DNA from: Escherichia phage vB_EcoM-RPN242
Strand: one strand, 5' to 3'
Length of the DNA stretch: 64,000 bases
Sequence record: OL656110.1
Shown here piece by piece: positions 7,847-60,840 of the stretch; the first letter of the stretch is position 1; every line of letters begins with the position of its first letter. The notes below the pieces were generated by a model. It was given only the letters and a program-made list of their open reading frames with translations. It had not been told where the DNA came from and made no database searches. A program made the translations under genes and the position numbers.

Positions 7847-8424
7847 AATTTCTACACACTATCGTCGACACTTCTTATGACTGCACTGCTCATACCCCAG
7901 ACCGTTCGCCTGTGTTTGTTCTGAACAAACTAGGTGAAGAGATCTGTGAACTGTCTGATGTGTTTCATGGCATAGTATCTTCCGAGCCGTTGAATGGCGA
8001 AGTTGCTGATGTCATTATCTCTGCTATTGACCTTCTGTACGTCATGGATTATGACGACGTCCAAATGCGCGGCTCTCTGAACAAGGCCGAAATGATCGAC
8101 TCTGTCATCAACCACATGGCGACAGTGAACGATATTTCTTCTAATCTGTTGGAAGAAGACTGGTTCCGTCTGATTGATCGTGATCCTCAAAAGCATCTGA
8201 ATCTTATCCATCATTATCATGGCCGGATTATCCGATTGTGCAACCAACCTTATCGCAGTCAAGACAGATTGGATCATCTTGTCAATGACCTAATCAAGCA
8301 TGTTGCGCGCATGGGGTGTGGGGAAGGGGCGATCCGTGGATCCTCTTTGATGGCCACTCGCATTAAAGTGGAGCACGCTATTGAACACAAGGTTGAAAAG
8401 TGGCGTAGCAAATTTGGCTTATGA
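7843..8424 (+). CDS. MazG-like all-alpha NTP pyrophosphohydrolase (putative)
   Basis: LNKLGEEICELSDV resembles the MazG E-E-x-x-E metal-binding helix; ATG overlaps upstream stop (ATGA). Confidence 0.4.
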   Translation: MKFLHTIVDTSYDCTAHTPDRSPVFVLNKLGEEICELSDVFHGIVSSEPLNGEVADVIISAIDLLYVMDYDDVQMRGSLNKAEMIDSVINHMATVNDISSNLLEEDWFRLIDRDPQKHLNLIHHYHGRIIRLCNQPYRSQDRLDHLVNDLIKHVARMGCGEGAIRGSSLMATRIKVEHAIEHKVEKWRSKFGL

Positions 8425-9251
8425 AATACGAAATCATCTTAGACGCTCTCATACAGAGAGCAATACAGAGAGGTAAAATGGATGGCGTTTATCAAGAACG
8501 CCACCATATAATCCCTGTGTGCTTGGGTGGCACTAACCACTTCTCTAATCTTGTATGGTTGACACCAGAAGAACATTATGTCGTACATCACCTACTTTGG
8601 AGAACAAAACCACTCAACCCCGGTATCAGGAAGGCATGGACTGGGATGAACAACATGTCTAGGAACAACAAAGAGTTTGGGGAATTGAGGAGAAATAATT
8701 CCGCCAGAATGAAAGAAGTGATGTCATCTGATGAACAAAAGGAACGTTGTCGTAAGCAATCCAAGAAAAACTCATTGAACCCAGAAGTACAGAAGAAACG
8801 TGCGGATAGCTTGAGAGGTTACACTTGGAATGACGAATCAAGGCGCAGGTTGTCAAAATCCAGGAAAGGGATACCACACTCCGAAGCACACAAAGCCAAT
8901 CTTACCAAATCAGTCACCGAACGGATGAGGCGACCAGAAGAAAGGGAGAGGTATTCTGCTATGTGGCGCCAGAACAATCCCATGAATAACATACAACCTT
9001 GGGAACACCCGACTGTCGTAAAGACGGGTAAATCCCGACAATGGCTCTTGGCTGGTGAATTCTTTGAATGGTGGTATAGTAACGGTGAAGACAAAGTGAA
9101 GAACCGTTATTGTTTAATGTTGAAAGAAACCGGGTTAAGCTCTGTTTGTTCTAAGGCCACAGCTCAAACTTGTATATCTAAATTTCAGAAAGGTTGGATA
9201 CCAAAAGAAGATCCCGCCTGGTTGAAATTTTACGGAGATAATAATGGTTGA
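8421..9251 (+). CDS. HNH homing endonuclease with NUMOD-like motifs
   Basis: HNH core HHIIPVCLGGTNHFSNLVWLTPEEHYVVH; repeated SRKG.PHSE-type motifs; paralogous to ORF 24783-25382; sits immediately upstream of topoisomerase gene. Confidence 0.75.
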   Translation: MKYEIILDALIQRAIQRGKMDGVYQERHHIIPVCLGGTNHFSNLVWLTPEEHYVVHHLLWRTKPLNPGIRKAWTGMNNMSRNNKEFGELRRNNSARMKEVMSSDEQKERCRKQSKKNSLNPEVQKKRADSLRGYTWNDESRRRLSKSRKGIPHSEAHKANLTKSVTERMRRPEERERYSAMWRQNNPMNNIQPWEHPTVVKTGKSRQWLLAGEFFEWWYSNGEDKVKNRYCLMLKETGLSSVCSKATAQTCISKFQKGWIPKEDPAWLKFYGDNNG

Positions 9252-12479: not shown

Positions 12480-12495
12480 GGAGGGTTCGCCCTCC
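12480..12495 (+). promoter_or_regulatory. UUCG-tetraloop hairpin whose 3' arm is complementary to the downstream SD
   Basis: GGAGGG-TTCG-CCCTCC right after gp52 stop; downstream SD GGAGGG (12502-12507) can alternatively pair with CCCTCC. Confidence 0.4.
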
Positions 12496-12514
12496 TCACC
12501 TGGAGGGTTGTGCT

Positions 12515-22082: not shown

Positions 22083-24029
22083 ATGGCACAGGAAGCAACG
22101 AACAATGATGTTGTCAAAGTTCTAGACAAGATCAAGGCGGAGATGATGCAGCGCAAACAACTCCGTGCTCAGAATGAAACCAACAAACAGCTTGACCGGA
22201 TGAACAAGAATCTGGCCAAGCTGGAATCTGCCACCAAACAGGGCACCAAGGCCGAGTCCAAGCCATTTGAAATCCGTATCCCGACAGTCAATGAGATCGT
22301 CATGGGATTCGCTCGCATGTCTCCGATCTTCACCCGCGACTTCAGCGTATGGATGAAGGATACTGTCGATGTGGGTAACGAAGGCAATCGGGAACTGGAG
22401 AATATCGCAGGCAAGATTGACCGCCTCGGTGAGATCACCCGCATGCCAACAGATGACACGTCCCTGGAGTATCTTAACCTGATCTCAGACCAGCTGAAGT
22501 CTGCCAATGATGACACCCTCAAGCGCATGGACGAGCAGAGTGTGTCTCTGATCCGCGTGGGATCATTCTTGAACATGATCGACGGAGTGATAATCGAGGT
22601 TCGTGACGATGTTGCTGAACTGAAAAAGAACTCCGATGACACCCTTACTCGCTTGTCTAGCATTGAAAACAAGATTGGGCGCACGGGCGGTCATATCGTT
22701 GGAGTGCTGACACGCATCTTTGATGAAGACCAGAAGTGGCGTGAGAAGGACGAGATGCGCCGTGGGGAAACCGACAAAGAAACGGGTGGTCATCCTCAGG
22801 CGGGTTCTGTTATACCCAAAGACGATGACCAGAAAGACGATTCCTCCGGTATCGGGGCTGCTGTGGCGGCCATGCTTGGCCTGAATGCACTGAAGGGCTT
22901 CTTGCTCAAGCCGTTCAAGATCATCGGTGGTGTTGTCGGGACTTTCCTCGGCATGTTTTCCAAGCTGGGAGAAGGTATCACCAAACTTCTGGGTCCATTT
23001 GGGAAGGTGTTCAAGTTCCTGAAAGTCGGCCCACTGGCTCTCCTGTCTATGATCTGGGACTTCGGTAAAGGCTTCATTGATGCGAAGGAGATCCTGGGTA
23101 AAGGTGCTGTCACGATAGTTGACCGAGTACGGGCGGGGATATCAGAACTGGTTGGTGGATTTGGTGATCTATTTGACTGGGTGTCCAAGATCTTTGGCTT
23201 TGATACCAAGGCGGGAGAAACCCTGCGCAAATACACCCTCATGATCACTGAGGCTCCCGCTCGTTGGCTGAATGGTATTATCGACTGGATTAGCAACGAC
23301 TTGTTTGCAGGGATCGGGAGAGACACGTCTCTTACTGATATCCCTGGCAAGTTAGCAGACAACCTACAGTCCGAGTTGACAAAGCTGGTAGACTGGATCA
23401 CAGGGGGTATCAGTAGTGTGATCGACGATGGCATGGGTGTGGCCAACAAGGTCATTGACGATATCAAGAAGGGATTTGCCGAAAATGTGAAGAAACCTTT
23501 CTTCAACATGCTGAACACAATCACCAATGCGATGTTCGATATCGTTGACAAGTTCGTCAGCATCATCCCTGACGCTCTGGGTGGACAGGCTGCGAAGCAG
23601 AAGATGGATGAGGCTCGCCAGTCTATGCTGATTGACACTGATGAGAATCCGTCTCCTAATGTGACAGAGACCCAGCAGCCACAGACGCCAGCACAACCGA
23701 ACATCGATCCACAAACGCTGACTCCAATACCTTCTGGTGCGTCTTCGGATGACAAGAATATGACTAATGACCGCACCTCTCAGCTGAAAGCTGCGTATGG
23801 TTCTATCGGGGGCGGTACTCTGGGCGGGGCCATGCCATCACAAGGTAGGGCGCTGTCTAATATTGAGCAAGTACAAGGCGGCTATTCACCGCCTCCAGCC
23901 AGCGTCGTGATGCCAGTACAGCAGAATGTGGATGCTTCTAAGAGGATCAACACGACCAATAACTTCAACAGCTCATATCTTGAGCCTGAGAACAAAACAG
24001 ATAATTCCCGCATCCTGTGGGAATGGTAA
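22083..24029 (+). CDS. tail length tape-measure/baseplate hub protein (gp29-like), putative
   Basis: 648 aa; N-terminal coiled-coil-like region, central Gly-rich hydrophobic stretch (GIGAAVAAMLGLNALKGFLL...), Pro/Gln-rich C-terminal region. Confidence 0.5.
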   Translation: MAQEATNNDVVKVLDKIKAEMMQRKQLRAQNETNKQLDRMNKNLAKLESATKQGTKAESKPFEIRIPTVNEIVMGFARMSPIFTRDFSVWMKDTVDVGNEGNRELENIAGKIDRLGEITRMPTDDTSLEYLNLISDQLKSANDDTLKRMDEQSVSLIRVGSFLNMIDGVIIEVRDDVAELKKNSDDTLTRLSSIENKIGRTGGHIVGVLTRIFDEDQKWREKDEMRRGETDKETGGHPQAGSVIPKDDDQKDDSSGIGAAVAAMLGLNALKGFLLKPFKIIGGVVGTFLGMFSKLGEGITKLLGPFGKVFKFLKVGPLALLSMIWDFGKGFIDAKEILGKGAVTIVDRVRAGISELVGGFGDLFDWVSKIFGFDTKAGETLRKYTLMITEAPARWLNGIIDWISNDLFAGIGRDTSLTDIPGKLADNLQSELTKLVDWITGGISSVIDDGMGVANKVIDDIKKGFAENVKKPFFNMLNTITNAMFDIVDKFVSIIPDALGGQAAKQKMDEARQSMLIDTDENPSPNVTETQQPQTPAQPNIDPQTLTPIPSGASSDDKNMTNDRTSQLKAAYGSIGGGTLGGAMPSQGRALSNIEQVQGGYSPPPASVVMPVQQNVDASKRINTTNNFNSSYLEPENKTDNSRILWEW

Positions 24030-24695
24030 TCAGATTCCGTGGGCTTGTATTAGCTCACGGAGTCTCTGTTTTGAATATGTGGTATCCTCATCCGGAACCA
24101 CAGCATTCGTCTTCCTGAGCAAGAACGCCTCTGAGTTCCAGTAGATGTCATCACGCAGAATCGTATCGTATAGATGAATGAAACCAACGATCTTGTTCAG
24201 ACCGACAAGGAACCAAATCGGGAACTTCTTGACGATGATGTCTGTCAGCAACGGTGGATGACCTGTACCCGTCCCCTTGATGTACTCAATGAAGGTGCAG
24301 TTGCGCTCCCTTATGGCAGGGATCATTTCCCGTTCGAACTCCTCAAGGAAGTTATATGTGAAGTTCTCGTACAACTTACGGTATTCATCATAATTGGCCT
24401 GAGCCTGGCGTGTAAGCAATGTCGTCACCCAGGTCTTGGGTGATTTGATGAAGTTGGCAATGATGTAGTTCTCTACCACTTCACCCTGTGATGACTCGAA
24501 TCGACGGGCAAGGCGAGCAAACTGTTTGCACACGGCCTCCTTCGCCAAGAACGTCTCGAACTTGTAATTCATCGGTCCATACAAGCTGTAATCGAAGTCC
24601 TTAGTGGTGAAGTGCAGCTTGATCGCCATGAAGACACAGTAAACGTTGAACGCCCGCTCGAACTGCATTTTTTCCCAATCGGTATACTCACGCAT
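24030..24695 (-). CDS. helicase loader (gp59-like), putative
   Basis: 221 aa (T4 gp59 is ~217 aa); N-terminal VYCVFMAIKLHF...FARLARRF pattern resembles recalled gp59; strong SD GAGGAA. Confidence 0.4.
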   Translation of the reverse strand: MREYTDWEKMQFERAFNVYCVFMAIKLHFTTKDFDYSLYGPMNYKFETFLAKEAVCKQFARLARRFESSQGEVVENYIIANFIKSPKTWVTTLLTRQAQANYDEYRKLYENFTYNFLEEFEREMIPAIRERNCTFIEYIKGTGTGHPPLLTDIIVKKFPIWFLVGLNKIVGFIHLYDTILRDDIYWNSEAFLLRKTNAVVPDEDTTYSKQRLRELIQAHGI

Positions 24696-24782
24696 TTTTC
24701 ATTTCCTCGAAAAACTTAACCCAATTCTCATCATTGTACGGCACCCATCCTTTTTGAAATCTTTGTATGCAACTTTTGGCGG

Positions 24783-25382
24783 TCATTTCGGCGCGATCCA
24801 CCCCAATTCCTTGACCATCGTTACATTTCGACATATGCCTAACCTGGCACCATCGGCTACCCACCAATCATAGAATATTCCTGCCAAAGCCCAATATTTG
24901 CGGGTATGCGTCGCATTTGGACTTTCCCAAGGCTTTGAATGGATTTGTTTTAATTTGGAACGTTGTGAATCTGATTTGGGTCTGCCCATCAGCGAATCGG
25001 AAATTTTCGATCTGTGTTCACGGGATAACGCCACCCCCTTGAATCTTTCACTGCATTTTTGTTTAAACTCTGGAGTGCTGTTAGCTGTCTTCACCCTTTC
25101 CCATTTTCTGAGAGCGAACTCTTCGTATTGGCGTGAAGTTTGTGATTTTGATATATTTCTCATCAAAGAAAAGATTTTCACGTATGCAGGAGACATACTG
25201 AATATCTTGGCCAAAAGTTTGTGAACTATGAAATGTTCCCGAGCAGTTAGAACAGCAATATTCTCCGCAGTATCAGCCCCTCCCAAGCTCCTGGGTTCTT
25301 TATGGTGTCTTTCTGAATACCCAATCAGATTGCGAGAATAAGACCTTTCAAGGATAGAAACCAACGCTCGGGTATAGTTCAT
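24783..25382 (-). CDS. HNH homing endonuclease with NUMOD-like motifs
   Basis: HNH core ERHHKEPRSLGGADTAENIAVLTAREHFIVH; C-terminal PWESP...YWALAGIFYDWW parallels ORF 8421-9251. Confidence 0.75.
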   Translation of the reverse strand: MNYTRALVSILERSYSRNLIGYSERHHKEPRSLGGADTAENIAVLTAREHFIVHKLLAKIFSMSPAYVKIFSLMRNISKSQTSRQYEEFALRKWERVKTANSTPEFKQKCSERFKGVALSREHRSKISDSLMGRPKSDSQRSKLKQIHSKPWESPNATHTRKYWALAGIFYDWWVADGARLGICRNVTMVKELGWIAPK

Positions 25383-25397
25383 TTGCGTTCCTCTTCT

Positions 25398-25631
25398 TTA
25401 ATAAATTGCAATAACTCTTCCATCAGCCCTTTCTTCTTGATGAACTGTAACACCAGGATGAAGCGACGGAAGGAGCGGGGGGACAACACGATAACCCTTC
25501 GCCCAGTAGTTCACAACATTAGAACAATCCAATAAACGAGCCAGCCCAGATTGTGACACCCCGAGGCTCAGCAGAACCTTGTACATGTACTTCTTGTCAT
25601 TTACCGGAAGCTCTTTCATTCTTAAACTCAT
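25398..25631 (-). CDS. small HTH (XRE-like) DNA-binding protein, possibly degenerate
   Basis: HTH-like LSLGVSQSGLARLLDCSNVVNYWAKG; low-complexity C-terminal tail; 15 nt upstream of HNH gene. Confidence 0.35.
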   Translation of the reverse strand: MSLRMKELPVNDKKYMYKVLLSLGVSQSGLARLLDCSNVVNYWAKGYRVVPPLLPSLHPGVTVHQEERADGRVIAIY

Positions 25632-25854
25632 GATACTTGTCCGCTAATGTCTTGTAATATTTGTTAGGATTATACTCCTGTTTGGAATAGTGAAGAGTAA
25701 GGGAAGCACTCAGACCTAAGATGATCACGACAACGAGCGCCTTGTGGTTATTGATCTCGGGAATAGCTATCCACACCAGCAACAACACAAGCGAGCTGAT
25801 AATCAAGGACAGTAAGAACGTTAATGCAATCACCAATGCGAATAGCTCGTCCAT
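25597..25854 (-). CDS. hypothetical two-TM membrane protein
   Basis: 85-aa ORF with two hydrophobic helices; SD AAGGGG; overlaps HTH ORF by 35 nt in another frame. Confidence 0.35.
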   Translation of the reverse strand: MDELFALVIALTFLLSLIISSLVLLLVWIAIPEINNHKALVVVIILGLSASLTLHYSKQEYNPNKYYKTLADKYHEFKNERASGK

Positions 25855-25858
25855 CAGA

Positions 25859-26074
25859 TCACCCCTTCAGTTCGATTTTCAGGTCATCAACATAACAACC
25901 CGTCTCTGTGTCCCAGATCTCAATACTGAAATGCTGGGTCGCCACTTTTGGGGTAAATCCCCAGGCCTCTGCTTTCTCAAGAAAGGAGTTTTGGGCGTCC
26001 TCTGGCGTCCCGGACACGGATTGAACCTGTAGACCGTCACACCCATCATGATACTGCAGCAAATACACTTTCAT
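25859..26074 (-). CDS. hypothetical protein
   Basis: 71-aa ORF; ATG overlaps ligase stop (TAATG). Confidence 0.45.
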   Translation of the reverse strand: MKVYLLQYHDGCDGLQVQSVSGTPEDAQNSFLEKAEAWGFTPKVATQHFSIEIWDTETGCYVDDLKIELKG

Positions 26075-27498
26075 TATGCAGACTCCAGCAGGAATACAAT
26101 GTTTTCGATGTATGCTTTCTGAATCGCATAGACTTCATCCAGTGTGTTGGCCACTTTCTTGTCAATGCGGACTTCTACAAGGCGAGGTAGGAACAAAGAC
26201 TTCATCGCATCATCTGTCTTATCCTGTACGCCATTGGAGAGCACTGCGGCGATCTTGCCAATGTAGTCGCCCTGGTTCTCCCACATATGGCGTCTCAGCT
26301 CATCTGAGATCCCTGATACACCAACAACAAGCAAGCCATCGGAAGTTTTACAAATCAGTGAGCCAAAAGTCTTGGCGTGTTTACCCTTCTTGTCGGCCTC
26401 GTTGAAGCCCACGATTTCAAGGTCACACTCAACCTCCATCTTCAGCTTCAGACCTTCAGAAGAAGTCCCATCTTCCCAAGGCATGTCGGCGGCCTTACAT
26501 ATCGTGCCTTCTTCTTTGCGAGCCAGCGCGTCTTTGAAGTGGTCGACGGCTTCGGCAAATGAGTGAACAACGCGGGTTTCTTGAACCTGAACCAGACCGT
26601 CGTCTTCATCAAACAGTTGCTGGATAATATCGAAGCGGCGCTCATACGGGGTGTCCACGCGCTGGGCGTTGAACCAGTTGTCGTACGGGATAACATCCCA
26701 CACCCGGTAGATCACCCGATAACGATCTTCCAGGGGTTCTCCTGTCTGAATCACGCTGTTGAGTTTACCGTTACCGACAGCACGAGGCAGGATGGTATTC
26801 GACTTGAGGTCAACAACGAGAAGTTCACCATGGAACACACTCTCACCAATCCCCGCATCGTAGATCAGGTCTTTGAACACCAGTGAAAGGTTATCAACCG
26901 AACCACCTGCGATAAGGGAACCGGAGCGAGAGCGAATCTCAGGCTCTTTATTGTACCGACATATGATGTTGGCGAACATACCGTCTGACTTCAGCTGGCT
27001 GTAGACGCCGCGCTTGAAGTCCATCTTCTTCAGCAGGTCAATCGTCATGTTGTCATAACGATGATACGGAAGAATGTTGATCAGGCGTCCAGTGCCTCCG
27101 GCGGCGTTGAATGCAGCGTTGATGCCCTTCTCTGCGATACCCGCCTTGATATCACGGTCTAGGATCATCTGAATGAGTTCGTGGTATTGGGGATCCATCT
27201 TCAGGGCGACAGAGGCCAACAGGGCATCAGCCTTTTGGCCACCGACAAGGCGCTGTGCCATCTGGTCGAGGACGTCATAGACTTCGCTGATGTCATCAGT
27301 CTTCTCACGGACGAGCATGCGAGGGTACGCGCTGAGCTTCAACTCAGTCCGATAGAACGACGTCATTGGGTCATAGACATATTGCAGGAAGTCTGCCAAG
27401 TCTGGGTTGTTCTTGAATGCTTCGGTCAGCACAGCTTTCTTCGCATTGCTGCCTTTGGTTTCGCGAAGTCGGTGGACTATTTCAAGGATAGGGATCAT
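26074..27498 (-). CDS. 30: ATP-dependent DNA ligase (gp30-like)
   Basis: 474 aa; adenylation motif I LKSDGMFANI (KxDG); N-terminus resembles T4 ligase; SD GGAGG. Confidence 0.85.
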   Translation of the reverse strand: MIPILEIVHRLRETKGSNAKKAVLTEAFKNNPDLADFLQYVYDPMTSFYRTELKLSAYPRMLVREKTDDISEVYDVLDQMAQRLVGGQKADALLASVALKMDPQYHELIQMILDRDIKAGIAEKGINAAFNAAGGTGRLINILPYHRYDNMTIDLLKKMDFKRGVYSQLKSDGMFANIICRYNKEPEIRSRSGSLIAGGSVDNLSLVFKDLIYDAGIGESVFHGELLVVDLKSNTILPRAVGNGKLNSVIQTGEPLEDRYRVIYRVWDVIPYDNWFNAQRVDTPYERRFDIIQQLFDEDDGLVQVQETRVVHSFAEAVDHFKDALARKEEGTICKAADMPWEDGTSSEGLKLKMEVECDLEIVGFNEADKKGKHAKTFGSLICKTSDGLLVVGVSGISDELRRHMWENQGDYIGKIAAVLSNGVQDKTDDAMKSLFLPRLVEVRIDKKVANTLDEVYAIQKAYIENIVFLLESA

Positions 27499-27505
27499 GT
27501 GGTGC

Positions 27506-27542
27506 CTCCAGGGTTATATGTGCTGCTATTATAACCCTGGAG
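27506..27542 (-). promoter_or_regulatory. 13-bp perfect hairpin sequestering the ligase SD
   Basis: CTCCAGGGTTATA / TATAACCCTGGAG arms with 11-nt loop; CTCC arm is the complement of the ligase SD GGAG on the mRNA. Confidence 0.45.
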
Positions 27543-27621
27543 ACTTCAATATATTATCAGGGAACGGATCCCAGCACTCAGCGACGGTATACAGAACAAC
27601 CAGTTGATAAACTTTATCATG

Positions 27622-27834
27622 TCACTTCCTCATCAGTGAGAGCAGATTGACCGTAGCCGGACGCGCATCAGGGGCGTAGAAGACGTCCTGAGAGTGCCTC
27701 TTACAGCACGGGCAATCCTTCGTGGCGATTACACAGGGAGCCTTGTCCACGGCAAATCCAGCGGCTTCGGCTTCCTTCACAGTGGTGAATGGCAGGTAAG
27801 CACTTGTGCCCTGCCCTCCGCATGAACATTCCAT
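27622..27834 (-). CDS. hypothetical Cys-rich small protein
   Basis: ATG 27834 (track start is in-frame TTG 27837); SD AGAGGA; CSCGG...CPCCKRH. Confidence 0.45.
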   Translation of the reverse strand: MECSCGGQGTSAYLPFTTVKEAEAAGFAVDKAPCVIATKDCPCCKRHSQDVFYAPDARPATVNLLSLMRK

Positions 27835-54052: not shown

Positions 54053-54121
54053 AAGAAAATACCTCCACAATGAATGCAGAGGTATTTAAAGTGAAAGTGA
54101 ACTACTTGAGGGAGTGGTGTA

Positions 54122-54457
54122 CTACATTTCTTTGAGCAGCGTTGCCATAAATTCCACCTTCTGGCGCAAACTGATATACGCTTCCGGAGCCGATTTGCCA
54201 CGCCCTTCTAATGAATCCCACCCGATGATTTTCGCCGACCAAAGTTTCTCATACTGATGGTAGGTCATCAAAAACGACTTACGACACATTTTGATGTCTG
54301 CGCCTTCTATGTTTCTGAGTATTTCCCAGTCCACCTGGCCCAAAGAAATTTTGAGTTCATACAGAGCCAATCTTGACAATTCCAAGTTATTCTTTGGAGT
54401 GCCTTCTGGTTTACCTGGCTCTGTTATGGCCAAAGCCTCTTGTTTTGTTAGTTTCAT
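54122..54457 (-). CDS. hypothetical protein
   Basis: ATG 54457 (aa 68 of track ORF) overlapping upstream small ORF stop. Confidence 0.4.
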   Translation of the reverse strand: MKLTKQEALAITEPGKPEGTPKNNLELSRLALYELKISLGQVDWEILRNIEGADIKMCRKSFLMTYHQYEKLWSAKIIGWDSLEGRGKSAPEAYISLRQKVEFMATLLKEM

Positions 54458-55361: not shown

Positions 55362-55435
55362 GGAGGGAGGTGATGTGAAGTAAAAAGTTTTAGCTCGGGC
55401 GAAATCTTACAAACTCGCGAGCCAATTCGGCCTGT

Positions 55436-55597
55436 TCAGCACTGATTGGTTCCCCATGGAAGTCCACCTGACCATTCTTCCAGCCGTGGATGAAACTCGG
55501 AGACTCTTCCCCAGATAGGACATACCCCTTCACGAGATTTCAAGTACCCCCGCACGACCTCTCCGTCGTCCAGTTTGTTCAGTTCTTCTAACGTCAT
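55436..55597 (-). CDS. small ORF (53 aa) coupled to primase, not in ORF track
   Basis: ATG 55597 overlaps primase stop (ATGA); own translation MTLEELNKLDDGEVVRGYLK... Confidence 0.25.
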   Translation of the reverse strand: MTLEELNKLDDGEVVRGYLKSREGVCPIWGRVSEFHPRLEEWSGGLPWGTNQC

Positions 55598-58119: not shown

Positions 58120-60840
58120 TCAGATCTTAATCTGCATGTTGCCACCCAGGGACTGCTCGTACTCGCTGTATGCGCCTTCCCCGTAGTCTCGTGCCCACTG
58201 GTCAGACTGCTGGGCGCTATCCAGAGTCATCAGGTTTGGTTCAGTCGGGTTGTAACCCTTGGACTTCGCATCCCGGTACAGAGTCTGCAGGTACTGGTTG
58301 GCGCGGTCAATCTGAGATTTGAACTCGCGATATGCCCCTTCAGTTGTGTTGCGGCGGAAGGTGATATCCCAGTCCACGTTCAGAGTCTGACCATCACGGC
58401 TTGCATAGATCTGCCAATCCAGGTCGCGGCCTTTTGGTGCGTTGTCGCGGATGGAGTCGGCGTATGCCGCAAGGTCGGCACCAGTCTTCTTCGCAGTACT
58501 CGACTCTTTCTCCAGTCTCTCGGTTTCTTTGGACAGGATACCCAACATAAATTCATTAGTGCGGCGATCCGCCATGTCGTACCCGCGCCAAAGGACTGAA
58601 CCGTTGTTGTCAACAGAAATGTCGTCCAAAAATACTTGTTTCGGATTATACGACGTGCTTTTCAGAGTTTGTATATTCCGAGATATCATTTCCATTTTAG
58701 AAGAAATTTCATCGATCACGGCCTGAACAATATCTTTCTTCAAAGTAAGTTCATATGTCTTCGGATTGTTCAGGGTACGACCTTTATTGGATACAATAGG
58801 CGTGATCGCCACTTTGCCTTTGTCGTAGTAATAGGTCACATTCGTGGTCAATACAGCACCATCATACTTCCCAGTTTTCGGGAAATTGACGCCAGACCAA
58901 GTGATGGACATACCGTTGACAGTCTCACCAAACACCATGGCGTTGCTTGGTATATTCAGGGTTCCAGAGTTGACCAGATCAGCGCCTTGGGCATTCAGGT
59001 CGATAGAACCATAGATGGCCCCGGTAATACGATCTTTCAGCATCAGGGTCTTGTCGCCCTTCTCTGGGATGATTTCCAGCGGGTGCTTGCCACGCGGAGG
59101 TTCTTTGATGAGTTCCAGTAGAGCAGTTTTCCCTGGCTTCACACGATTCAGGACAGCGTCGGACACTGTCAGAGTCCAGTTTGCGGTTTCCACATAACCC
59201 CAGCCCCGAGAACGGCGAATGGCTTTGATAGGATATGGAGCGCTTGTTGGCACTGCGCTAATTTCCCATTTGCCAGTGTACTGGGTCTTGGCAACCTCAA
59301 AGATGGACGCAATTACCGCATTGGCGACGTCACGGGCGCTACCTTTGGCCACGTTCTCCTCTTCAGCAATTTCGCTGAAAACTGAGTATTGAACGAAACC
59401 AGCGAGGACGTTTGTGAAGTTGACAACGATAACCAACCCGCCTGCTGTCGTGTAACGACCAGCGCCCACACGACGGATGTTTTCACCAGGAAGAATAGAA
59501 GTGTCCAGCCCAACGTTGGTATCAATGATACCCAGAACACGAGCGATGAAACCACTGTTACGTAATTGATCAACACTGGTTGCACCCTCGGTCGAATCCG
59601 ATGCGGATTTAGACACTTTGTTCAACTTGATAGAGACAAGGGTTTCCCCGTTGACACCGATGATATCCCATTCAGTACCCTGCTCGTTCGAGATGCGAGC
59701 AGTCTTGCGCTTTGAATTGATGGCACCTTCGTAACGCCCGTTCTTGACTACAACAGAGGCTGTGGCAGCATCAGTAGCACTTGCTGCATTTGAAAAGTCT
59801 GGGTCAGAAATACTGATGTCGACGTCACCGTTTTGAGAACGCATGCGAACGCCGTTTTTGAATCGTTCCACGTTTACTTCTCGAGCACCAAGTCGTTTGG
59901 CATCAATAACAGCAGTTCCAGAACCGATAATGTTGGCTGGGTTATTTCTGTCTGAACTGTTTTGAGAACCTTTCCAAAATTTTGTGGACGCTGTGGTGAA
60001 ATCATTCAGGATACTGATAGGGACTTGTGGTAATTTCAACTGACGAGCAATGAAATCAGCACTTTGCCCACGCACAGGTTTCTCATTCATGTATGCGCCA
60101 ACATACACACCCGGCTCATTGTAGTGGGGAGCGATATTTGCCGTGTTCATGCGGCCTCTCTCCTTACCAGCCCATAACAACATGGGCTGATCTCCGTTTG
60201 AAGTTAATTTCCATCCGTTGGAATTATCAACAGAAGATGACACACCCACATCCGGAGTATTGTTCTGAACCGGAACGTCACCGACCTTGTCTGGATCATC
60301 CCAGGTGATACCCTGCATCTTCGGACCGTCGAATACCTGAGCCGGATCTTTACCCTTGCGGACCAGCCACACATAACCACGGTCAGGGACAGGCGCGTAG
60401 GTCAGGTCCATGACATTCAGTTTCTGTTTCAGGCCGGACTGGCGGATGATCTTAGGAATCAGGGTCATACCGCGATCCAGCGCTTTCTTCGAGAAGTTGA
60501 CAGCAAAGCCATCGATGGTTTTGCCCAGAGGAGTCGCCATGAATTGTTTGGTCGCTTCGATCATGGAAGCGATAACGCGCATTGGGTTCTTGAAGCGAGC
60601 GATGGCGTCAGGATAGACGGAGCCGCGCTTCTGGCCGATGAAAACCTGACGAACACTCTTACCCAGCCCCTGAGGGGTATAGAACTGAATACGGTATTCC
60701 TTTTCATCTTCGTCGACGAAGGTGAAGAACACATCGCCTGCGTTCTTCTTACCCATGGTCAGCTCATACGGAGCGGAGTTGAACGCTTCGTCCAACTGAT
60801 CTCTTTCCTGCATGAACTGGAGGAAACTTAGCTTTGACAT
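58120..60840 (-). CDS. large hypothetical protein (906 aa)
   Basis: long ORF with SD AGGAGA; no recognisable catalytic motif. Confidence 0.6.
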   Translation of the reverse strand: MSKLSFLQFMQERDQLDEAFNSAPYELTMGKKNAGDVFFTFVDEDEKEYRIQFYTPQGLGKSVRQVFIGQKRGSVYPDAIARFKNPMRVIASMIEATKQFMATPLGKTIDGFAVNFSKKALDRGMTLIPKIIRQSGLKQKLNVMDLTYAPVPDRGYVWLVRKGKDPAQVFDGPKMQGITWDDPDKVGDVPVQNNTPDVGVSSSVDNSNGWKLTSNGDQPMLLWAGKERGRMNTANIAPHYNEPGVYVGAYMNEKPVRGQSADFIARQLKLPQVPISILNDFTTASTKFWKGSQNSSDRNNPANIIGSGTAVIDAKRLGAREVNVERFKNGVRMRSQNGDVDISISDPDFSNAASATDAATASVVVKNGRYEGAINSKRKTARISNEQGTEWDIIGVNGETLVSIKLNKVSKSASDSTEGATSVDQLRNSGFIARVLGIIDTNVGLDTSILPGENIRRVGAGRYTTAGGLVIVVNFTNVLAGFVQYSVFSEIAEEENVAKGSARDVANAVIASIFEVAKTQYTGKWEISAVPTSAPYPIKAIRRSRGWGYVETANWTLTVSDAVLNRVKPGKTALLELIKEPPRGKHPLEIIPEKGDKTLMLKDRITGAIYGSIDLNAQGADLVNSGTLNIPSNAMVFGETVNGMSITWSGVNFPKTGKYDGAVLTTNVTYYYDKGKVAITPIVSNKGRTLNNPKTYELTLKKDIVQAVIDEISSKMEMISRNIQTLKSTSYNPKQVFLDDISVDNNGSVLWRGYDMADRRTNEFMLGILSKETERLEKESSTAKKTGADLAAYADSIRDNAPKGRDLDWQIYASRDGQTLNVDWDITFRRNTTEGAYREFKSQIDRANQYLQTLYRDAKSKGYNPTEPNLMTLDSAQQSDQWARDYGEGAYSEYEQSLGGNMQIKI

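What the first reader, a model, noticed from the sequence alone, without database searches (positions are those of the whole stretch)
24783..25631. Second HNH homing endonuclease with adjacent degenerate HTH ORF
The HNH gene is preceded (15-nt gap) by a 77-aa ORF with an XRE-like HTH followed by a low-complexity tail that looks like frameshifted remnant sequence. This could be a decayed DNA-binding module of the endonuclease or a separate small regulator. The cassette lies between gp59-like and ligase genes, another typical insertion hotspot.
Basis: seen in the sequence. Interest (0 to 1): 0.45.

Follow-up and report, generated by a model that had tools for sequence, protein, structure and literature searches.

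The report
Two frameshifted genes: HTH regulator, HNH endonuclease
This is an ordinary mobile HNH "homing" nuclease gene sitting next to an unrelated small DNA-binding gene, and in this phage genome each is broken by a one-base change in a run of identical bases, which is either recent decay or a sequencing error.

Summary
The ORFs are real, on the minus strand, at the stated coordinates. The window is Escherichia phage vB_EcoM-RPN242 (Ackermannviridae, Agtrevirus-like).

The 77-aa ORF's odd tail is out-of-frame sequence. The window has G6 at 25477-25482, where all 16 close phage records have G5. Removing one base gives an 83-aa protein identical to relatives (phrog_4600), whose TGA overlaps the HNH ATG.

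This HTH gene is a conserved standalone gene. It is present in relatives that lack the HNH, and no HNH homologue carries it fused.

C4 at 24801-24804 (C5 in all 9 HNH-bearing records) truncates the endonuclease from 231 to 199 aa and removes a conserved C-terminal motif.

The HNH is a free-standing homing endonuclease inserted exactly at the gp59 start codon. It is present in 9 of 44 related records. A recoded gp59 5' end co-segregates with it.

Reads are needed to decide whether the two indels are real mutations or record errors. Their placement in dispensable genes mildly favours real mutations. The finding is ordinary and of low interest.

The parts
25379..25631 (-). Small standalone XRE-like HTH gene (phrog_4600 family). 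It is frameshifted here. The open 77-aa ORF is 25631..25398. The original reading frame, after removing one base, runs to the TGA at 25381-25379, which overlaps the HNH ATG.
   Evidence: repaired protein is 100% identical to the CECAV_050 and PC3 proteins. (phrog_4600, residues 1-83 of an 86-position profile, E 2.3e-42). (homologues of 71-90 aa; the RPN242 record annotates the broken ORF as gp036, 73 aa).
25477..25482 (.). G6 run on the + strand (C6 on the coding strand). It is one base longer than in all relatives. The frameshift falls right after ...GYRVVP, at the end of the predicted recognition helix, and removes predicted helices 4 and 5.
   Evidence: (16 of 16 records have G5). (the only IMG/VR and metagenome matches are the 37-nt G5 form). 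(helices at 52-66 and 70-83). (one of only two G/C runs of 6 or more in the 64-kb window).
24688..25382 (-). Footprint of the free-standing HNH homing endonuclease gene (231 aa in relatives). The open 199-aa ORF is 25382..24783. The out-of-frame C-terminal remnant continues to the TGA at 24690-24688, which overlaps the gp59 start.
   Evidence: (phrog_655 'homing endonuclease', E 2.7e-52). (invariant H26, H27, N41, H50, H54). (all nine copies at 95% identity or more align 1-231 in a single piece).
24801..24804 (.). C4 run on the + strand (G4 on the coding strand). It is one base shorter than in all HNH-bearing relatives. It shifts the frame after residue 194 and removes the conserved F-x-K-G-W-x-P-x-x-D-x-x-W C-terminal motif.
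   Evidence: (9 of 9 records span 107 nt against 106 query nt). (the motif is conserved in homologues at 36-51% identity).
24657..24695 (-). Recoded 5' end of gp59 (MREYTDWEKMQ... instead of MLTEWQKME...). It co-segregates with the HNH gene. The probable meaning is a disrupted or immunised homing target, or a co-conversion tract.
   Evidence: mismatches to HNH-less fGh-Ecl02 cluster at 24657-24686. (identical in 6 of 6 HNH+ genomes; the other form is in 3 of 3 HNH- genomes).
24030..24695 (-). gp59-like DNA helicase loader, intact. This is the resident gene immediately downstream of the insertion. It has its own GAGGA Shine-Dalgarno sequence 8 nt upstream of the ATG.
   Evidence: phrog_269, E 1.6e-62. 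(99.5% identical to PC3, single frame). (sequence).

Best explanation
The locus holds two unrelated genes in one minus-strand operon: ligase, 71-aa ORF, 85-aa membrane protein, HTH, HNH, gp59.

**Gene 1: the HTH gene.**
- It is a resident, standalone, roughly 83-aa XRE-like helix-turn-helix protein conserved across Aglimvirinae.
- Its DNA target is unknown. It is presumed to be a small DNA-binding regulator.

**Gene 2: the HNH gene.**
- It is a free-standing HNH homing endonuclease with an H-N-H core and a NUMOD3-like linker, of the Mob/F-Lim type common in Ackermannviridae.
- It is inserted precisely after the ATG of gp59. It took over gp59's ribosome-binding site and supplies a new one.
- Inferred mechanism: in a mixed infection it cuts HNH-less genomes near the HTH/gp59 junction, and recombinational repair copies in the HNH ORF together with the recoded gp59 5' end.

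**State in this genome (phage RPN242).**
- Each gene carries a one-base length change in a G/C homopolymer that no other sequenced relative has.
- A +1 base change in the HTH gene removes predicted helices 4 and 5.
- A -1 base change in the HNH gene removes the last 37 residues, including a conserved motif.
- The catalytic HNH core is still encoded. The enzyme is probably impaired in target binding, which is an inference.

**Cause.** I judge it somewhat more likely than not (about 0.55-0.6) that these are genuine slippage mutations tolerated in dispensable genes. That would mean a homing endonuclease and a small accessory gene caught in early decay, rather than sequencing errors.

**Shown:** the anatomy, the two indels and their uniqueness, the independence of the HTH gene, and the presence/absence polymorphism with its junction.

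**Inferred:** homing activity, the target site, loss of function, and a real rather than artefactual origin.
For: **Anatomy and indels.**

**Uniqueness of the two alleles.**
- 16 of 16 records have G5.
- 9 of 9 records have C5.
- the other 10 members of the HNH cluster are all 231 aa, and the 199-aa form occurs only in UHS65612.1 of RPN242.
- the only IMG/VR and metagenome matches carry G5.

**Independence of the HTH gene.**

**Mobility of the HNH gene.**
- It is present in 9 of 44 otherwise collinear records.
- The junction is exact, and the recoded gp59 5' end co-segregates with the HNH.
- A 47%-identical homologue occupies the same position, overlapping the gp59 start, in Erwinia phage Bue1 of another genus.

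**Real mutation rather than random error.**
- About 90 PC3 genes were mapped onto the window. The only frame-breaking changes hit the HNH gene, the HTH gene and a 68-aa hypothetical gene. A fourth change alters only the last 2 residues of a 91-aa gene.
- None hits the 65 larger genes, which hold 84% of the coding homopolymer sites of 4 nt or more. Under random placement p is about 0.004 for three hits and 0.0006 for four.
- In phage A221, the only broken gene in the same 50 kb is the other HNH endonuclease.
- A nearby window-specific double indel at 12485/12489 shortens both arms of a hairpin by one base, which points to real evolution.
Against: - Both changes are plus or minus one base in G/C homopolymers. 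This is also the classic signature of homopolymer sequencing or assembly error.
- Both are singletons seen in one GenBank record only.
- The HTH gene is otherwise well conserved (mean column identity 79%), so its loss is unexpected.
- The sequencing platform of RPN242 could not be established, because the describing paper is not held.
- The 'dispensable gene' class used in the placement test was defined after seeing the data.
- Homing activity, the cleavage site and DNA binding by the HTH protein are untested.
- The Pfam HNH score (17.2 bits) is below the gathering cut-off of 21.4.
- Fold searches were not statistically significant.
Confidence: 0.6

Rival explanations
1. Sequencing or assembly artefact. 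Both genes are intact in the real phage (83-aa HTH, 231-aa HNH). The deposited RPN242 sequence miscounts two G/C homopolymers (G5 read as G6, C5 read as C4).
For: - Both indels are single-base length changes in homopolymers.
- Both are unique to this one record among all relatives, and the G6 allele is also absent from the IMG/VR and metagenome scans.
- Repair restores proteins about 99.6-100% identical to PC3 and CECAV_050, together with the overlapping stop/start codons used by all relatives.
- The record has two further window-specific one-base differences that affect small CDSs (37279 and 55530).
- CECAV_050 has none in the same region.
- G6 is one of only two G/C runs of 6 or more in the window.
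Against: - Random errors should mostly hit the large essential genes, which hold 84% of coding homopolymer sites. None is affected.
- An independent genome (A221) likewise has its only frameshift in an HNH gene.
- Several other window-specific indels are intergenic or compensatory, as real evolution would give.
- The sequencing platform is unknown.
Confidence: 0.36
2. The HTH ORF is the decayed, once-fused DNA-binding module of the HNH endonuclease, so the two ORFs form one degenerating cassette.
For: - The two ORFs are adjacent, and in relatives they are translationally coupled by an ATGA overlap.
- Both are frameshifted in this genome.
- In Erwinia phage Bue1, an HTH-like ORF also precedes the HNH homologue.
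Against: - The HTH gene is present and intact in HNH-less relatives, where it directly overlaps gp59.
- It is a separate PHROG family.
- All homologues are short standalone proteins.
- No HNH homologue among the 120 listed has an XRE HTH domain.
- The left boundary of the insertion lies after the HTH gene.
Confidence: 0.02
3. Recoding or phase variation. The C6 tract on the coding strand (GUC CCC CCG) is a programmed +1 frameshift site or a contingency tract that tunes expression of the HTH protein.
For: - CCC-C sequences are known +1-slippage-prone sites for tRNA-Pro in bacteria. This is my own knowledge and was not tested here.
- A +1 shift at this site would restore the full conserved C-terminus.
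Against: - The frameshift is not conserved. Every relative encodes the protein in a single frame with C5.
- No stimulatory element was looked for or seen.
- Six bases is short for transcriptional slippage or efficient phase variation.
Confidence: 0.02

Closest known systems
Free-standing HNH homing endonucleases of T4-like and ViI-like phages (T4 MobA-E; the F-Lim enzymes of Dickeya phage LIMEstone1, PMC3296691; Ag3 orf00042, annotated as 'similar to MobE')
   Same: - An intergenic, free-standing ORF inserted immediately upstream of a conserved replication gene.
- An H-N-H catalytic motif plus a NUMOD3-like region.
- Patchy presence among otherwise collinear genomes.
- Sequence differences in the flanking target gene that co-segregate with the endonuclease.
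- Variation in homing nuclease content among Agtrevirus genomes is already reported (PMC10791037).
   Different: - This copy is truncated by a frameshift (199 aa against 231 aa).
- Cleavage and homing have not been demonstrated for this subfamily.
- Identity to other Ackermannviridae HNH paralogues is only about 30%.
Defunct or truncated homing endonucleases, such as T4 I-TevIII (from my own knowledge: a truncated HNH enzyme of the nrdB intron compared with the full-length RB3 version)
   Same: An HNH homing endonuclease gene that has lost its C-terminal part while the element stays in the genome. This is the decay phase of the homing-endonuclease life cycle.
   Different: - The lesion here is a single-base homopolymer change in one isolate, not an old deletion.
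- It may be a sequence-record error.
XRE/Cro-CI family helix-turn-helix proteins (Pfam HTH_3/HTH_31), including small phage regulators such as Aca proteins and R-M controller C-proteins
   Same: - A size of about 80 aa and a predicted five-helix bundle.
- The sequence pattern LG-x-SQ-x-GLA-x-L-x-CS-x-x-V-x-x-W-x-x-G-x-x-x-P, which resembles HTH_3 repeats of P0161.
- Top structural neighbours are Aca7, Aca2, HigA2, MqsA and C.BclI.
   Different: - No Pfam HTH model matches, even at E <= 1.
- Structural matches are not significant (E >= 2.7).
- The family is tiny and restricted to Ackermannviridae-like phages.
- No operator or target is known.

Membership tests
HNH endonuclease superfamily (beta-beta-alpha-Me; Pfam PF01844) | Catalytic H-N-H residues in the conserved spacing | tested here: met
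   The motif ERHHKEPRSLGG-x5-N-x-AVLTAREH-x3-H is present. H26, H27, N41, H50 and H54 are invariant in alignments of 12 and 40 homologues. The residues lie in the intact part of the window ORF.
HNH endonuclease superfamily (beta-beta-alpha-Me; Pfam PF01844) | Score above the Pfam gathering threshold | tested here: not met
   The score is 17.2 bits (E 0.006) against a cut-off of 21.4. Some homologues in the same family do carry precomputed PF01844 hits. A profile of the family hits the McrA HNH region at E 0.0025.
HNH endonuclease superfamily (beta-beta-alpha-Me; Pfam PF01844) | Beta-beta-alpha-metal fold | tested here: inconclusive
   The AlphaFold model has pLDDT of about 94 or more over residues 1-120 and 89 up to about 140, with E24-27, E42-45 and H47-60. 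Most top Foldseek matches are HNH nucleases (colicin E9 at rmsd 0.8 A over 34 residues, Cas8-HNH, McrA), but all have E >= 0.75.
Free-standing homing endonuclease gene | Presence/absence polymorphism at one precise site in otherwise collinear genomes | tested here: met
   It is present in 9 of 44 related records. The junction lies exactly after the gp59 ATG. The same position is occupied in Erwinia phage Bue1.
Free-standing homing endonuclease gene | Target-site differences in the flanking gene that co-segregate with the endonuclease | tested here: met
   The first 33 nt or so of gp59 are recoded in 6 of 6 HNH+ genomes and are in the other form in 3 of 3 HNH- genomes.
Free-standing homing endonuclease gene | Site-specific cleavage of the endonuclease-less allele and super-Mendelian inheritance | not testable with these tools
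   This needs in vitro cleavage mapping and mixed-infection crosses.
XRE-family HTH (Pfam HTH_3/HTH_31) | Match to a curated HTH model | tested here: not met
   Pfam gives no hit at E <= 1 for either the 77-aa or the repaired 83-aa protein. There are no meaningful PDB sequence hits.
XRE-family HTH (Pfam HTH_3/HTH_31) | Five-helix lambda-repressor-like fold with a helix 2-turn-helix 3 motif | tested here: inconclusive
   Five helices are predicted at mean pLDDT 68. Nearly all top Foldseek matches are XRE-type but non-significant. The family profile hits the multi-HTH_3 protein P0161 at E 5e-5.
phrog_4600 (phage protein family of unknown function) | Full-length match to the family profile | tested here: met
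   The repaired protein matches positions 1-83 of the 86-position profile at E 2.3e-42. The unrepaired ORF shares only residues 1-51 with the family.
Programmed ribosomal frameshift | Frameshift site and two-frame organisation conserved among homologues | tested here: not met
   All relatives encode the protein in one frame with a 5-base run.

The most novel reading that the evidence does not exclude
The two frameshifts are real and functionally linked. For example, the HTH protein might regulate the ligase-to-gp59 operon into which the HNH inserted, so that loss of one gene selected for loss of the other. In that case this isolate records a homing endonuclease and its neighbour being inactivated together at slippage-prone G/C tracts. 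A weaker variant is that the G5/G6 tract acts as a population-level on/off switch for the regulator.
Probability: 0.07. Interest if true: 0.35.

Novelty: already known. Interest (0 to 1): 0.1.

Why it matters
The biological interest is small. Free-standing HNH homing endonucleases, and their patchy distribution in Ackermannviridae, are already documented, and both genes are annotated in GenBank.

Three practical points follow.
1. The RPN242 record carries two adjacent broken genes, gp036 and the HNH gene, that should be checked against the reads.
2. The exact junction and the recoded gp59 5' end give a ready-made, testable prediction for the homing target of this HNH subfamily.
3. The small phrog_4600 protein can be described as a probable XRE-like DNA-binding protein that is independent of the endonuclease.

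Tried and rejected
- **Pfam on the HTH protein.** No hit for the 77-aa or the repaired 83-aa protein.
- **PDB sequence search with the HTH family profile.** Only spurious designed-repeat and other hits.
- **Foldseek on both AlphaFold models.** The matches fit thematically (XRE proteins; HNH nucleases) but none is significant, so I use them only as weak support.
- **Promoter and terminator scan of 23900-27700.** Counts are at or below shuffle expectation (3 against 4.3, and 3 against 3.4). No separate promoter for the HNH can be claimed.
- **Exact-pattern scans of IMG/VR and metagenome contigs, allowing G5 or G6.** One match in each collection, both the 37-nt G5 form. There is no independent sighting of the G6 allele.
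- **The paper describing RPN242 (PMID 35598209).** It is not held, so the sequencing platform is unknown. A later paper that cites RPN242 used Illumina for a different phage, which does not carry over.
- **The Bue1 upstream 96-aa ORF as a homologue of the HTH family.** hhalign gives only E 0.004 and probability 8.5% over 29 columns. This is suggestive only.
- **Programmed frameshifting.** Considered and rejected, because the two-frame arrangement is not conserved.

Full report
**Source and layout.** The window is an Ackermannviridae (Aglimvirinae, Agtrevirus-like) phage. The region 24000-26100 is 99.3% identical to Escherichia phages PC3 and PH4, and it matches 44 phage records in all. The exact 199-aa HNH protein is UHS65612.1 of Escherichia phage vB_EcoM-RPN242. 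The broken HTH ORF is annotated there as RPN242_gp036, 73 aa. All the genes concerned lie on the minus strand. In order they are:
- ligase (27498..26074)
- a 71-aa ORF
- an 85-aa membrane protein (25854..25597)
- the 77-aa ORF (25631..25398)
- the HNH ORF (25382..24783)
- the gp59-like helicase loader (24695..24030)

**Observation.** The 'low-complexity tail' really is out-of-frame sequence. The neighbouring frame reads ...SPRSFRRFILVLQFIKKKGLMEELLQFIKEEERK*, and its TGA overlaps the HNH ATG in an ATGA arrangement.

**First frameshift (HTH gene).**
- Alignment with PC3, SW16-7 and A221 shows a single extra G in the run at 25477-25482, G6 against G5.
- All 16 records that match a 101-nt probe span 100 nt, so all have G5.
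- Deleting one G yields an 83-aa protein identical to that of CECAV_050, and to PC3 from its annotated start.
- The first ATG (25631) is the conserved start, because PP35 and other homologues have Leu at the second Met position.

- A 59-aa ORF in another frame (24867..24688) ends with ...FQKGWVPYNDENWVKFFEEMKNA*, and its stop overlaps the gp59 start.
- Alignment shows C4 at 24801-24804 where PC3, SW16-7, A221 and Ag3 have C5.
- All 9 HNH-bearing records span 107 nt against 106 query nt.
- Adding the base gives a 231-aa protein 99.6% identical to PC3.
- The other ten members of its 90% cluster are all 231 aa.
- The lost segment contains the motif F-x-K-G-W-x-P-x-x-D-x-x-W, which is conserved in homologues of only 36-51% identity.

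**The HTH gene is independent of the endonuclease.**
- In HNH-less relatives (SKML-39, PP35, fGh-Ecl02) the same 80-84 aa gene directly overlaps the gp59 start.
- The repaired protein matches phrog_4600 from end to end at E 2.3e-42.
- All homologues are 71-113 aa standalone proteins.
- The 120 best HNH homologues are 144-386 aa, and their only precomputed Pfam domains are NUMOD3, HNH, PF22083 or PF14279. None has an XRE HTH.

**Is it an HTH?**
- Pfam gives nothing.
- The family profile reaches a protein made of tandem HTH_3/HTH_31 domains at E 5e-5 in a search of 1.84 billion representatives. The repeats align as LG-x-(T/S)QSGL...CS...V..W..G.
- The AlphaFold model (pLDDT 68) has five helices.
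- Nearly all Foldseek neighbours are XRE-type proteins (Aca7, Aca2, HigA2, MqsA, C.BclI), but at E >= 2.7.
- I accept 'XRE-like HTH' as probable but not proven.
- The frameshift falls right after the predicted recognition helix and removes helices 4 and 5.

**The HNH is a free-standing homing endonuclease.**
- It matches phrog_655 'homing endonuclease' at E 2.7e-52.
- H26, H27, N41, H50 and H54 are invariant.
- The Pfam HNH score is below the gathering threshold, 17.2 against 21.4 bits.
- The structural model is confident over residues 1-150, and its nearest matches are HNH nucleases, though not significantly.
- It is present in 9 of 44 related records.

**The insertion junction is exact.**
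- HNH-less genomes read ...GAGGAACGCAAATG|CTGACAGAGTGGCAGAAGATGGAG..., where the HTH stop overlaps the gp59 start.
- HNH+ genomes read ...GAGGAACGCAAATG|AACTAT...(HNH)...GAGGAAATGAAAAATGCGTGAGTATACCGATTGGGAAAAAATGCAG....
- The endonuclease therefore uses the old gp59 start codon and ribosome-binding site, and it brings a new GAGGA for gp59.
- The first 33 nt or so of gp59 are recoded (MREYTDWEKMQ against MLTEWQKME).
- The recoded form is identical in 6 of 6 HNH+ genomes from two clades, and the other form is in 3 of 3 HNH- genomes from two genera.
- Against the 98%-identical HNH-less phage fGh-Ecl02, mismatches cluster at 24657-24686.
- A 47%-identical homologue sits in the same position, overlapping the gp59 start, in Erwinia phage Bue1 of genus Nezavisimistyvirus.
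- These are the usual signatures of a homing element whose target spans the HTH/gp59 junction. Cleavage itself is inferred and not shown.
- Homing endonuclease variability in this group is already described (PMC3296691, PMC10791037, PMC11721090).

**Real mutations or record errors?** About 90 PC3 proteins were mapped onto the window. Only these frame disruptions appear:
- the HTH gene
- the HNH gene
- a 68-aa hypothetical gene at 55530, compared with PC3 only
- an A5-to-A4 change that alters the last two residues of a 91-aa gene (37279-37283)

Points that favour real mutations:
- All of these lie in genes of 100 aa or less, or in an HNH gene. That class holds 16% of the coding homopolymer sites of 4 nt or more, so under random placement p is about 0.004 for three hits and 0.0006 for four. 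The class was defined after seeing the data.
- In the same 50 kb, CECAV_050 has no broken gene. A221 has exactly one, and it is the other HNH endonuclease.
- A window-specific double indel shortens both arms of a hairpin.
- These points suggest indels filtered by selection, meaning real slippage mutations tolerated in dispensable genes.

Points that favour record errors:
- Both changes are plus or minus one base in G/C homopolymers.
- Both are singletons in one record.
- The G6 allele is absent from IMG/VR and metagenome contigs.
- The HTH gene is otherwise conserved.
- The sequencing platform is unknown.

I put real mutation at about 0.55-0.6 and artefact at about 0.35-0.4. Only the reads can decide.

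**Consequences if the mutations are real (inferred).**
- The HTH product would lack two of its five helices and would probably be non-functional. Rare +1 slippage at CCC-CCG could restore a trace of full-length protein. That is my own knowledge of tRNA-Pro slippage and is untested here.
- The HNH product would keep its catalytic core and NUMOD3-like region but would lose a conserved C-terminal module, so targeting would probably be impaired.
- gp59 keeps its own Shine-Dalgarno sequence and is intact.

**Verdict.** The feature is ordinary and already annotated. Interest is low.

Noticed in passing
window 8421-9248 (+): This is the 'first' HNH homing endonuclease (276 aa), between a MazG-like gene and the topoisomerase II large subunit. 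It is intact here and is a 26-30% identical paralogue of the gp59-adjacent HNH. In phage A221 this copy is frameshifted near residues 195-203 and is left unannotated.
   Followed up: partly
window 37279-37283; ORF 37258..37551 (-): A window-specific A4 against A5 in PC3, CECAV_050 and A221. It changes the last two residues of a 91-aa hypothetical protein and extends it to 97 aa.
   Followed up: partly
window 55390-55597 (-), indel at 55530: The 68-aa hypothetical gene just downstream of the primase gene (PC3_000082) is split into 53-aa and 47-aa ORFs by a one-base insertion relative to PC3. The region is relatively divergent, and the comparison was made with PC3 only.
   Followed up: partly
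window 58120-60840 (-), extra segment about 59957-60272: This 906-aa ORF corresponds to the 800-aa PC3_000077, but it has an in-frame segment of about 99 codons that does not align with PC3. The nature of the extra segment was not examined.
   Followed up: no
window 12480-12503: An intergenic hairpin, GAGGG-TTCG-CCCTC, has both arms one base shorter than in PC3 and A221 (GAGGGG-TTCG-CCCCTC). This is a compensatory double indel, and it suggests that at least some window-specific homopolymer differences are genuine.
   Followed up: no
L015:1214-1504 (+) (Erwinia phage Bue1, MG973030.1): An unannotated 96-aa ORF overlaps the start of the Bue1 HNH homologue. It carries an HTH-like motif at the same residue positions as the Agtrevirus HTH family. 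The hhalign result is weak (E 0.004, probability 8.5%).
   Followed up: partly
L003:2189-2884 (Escherichia phage A221, ON862890.1): A221 carries an intact 231-aa copy of the gp59-adjacent HNH gene, but its GenBank record has no CDS annotated there.
   Followed up: yes
window 24032-24065: A 14-bp stem-loop lies between the convergent tape-measure-like gene and gp59, and it is annotated as a stem_loop in Ag3. It is likely a bidirectional terminator. The overall scan count for the region was at chance level.
   Followed up: no
window 27557-27595 and 54101-54453: Two PC3 genes have no counterpart in the window: PC3_000123 (113 aa, next to the ligase gene) and PC3_000085 (113 aa). These are small gene-content differences among near-identical Agtrevirus genomes.
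   Followed up: no
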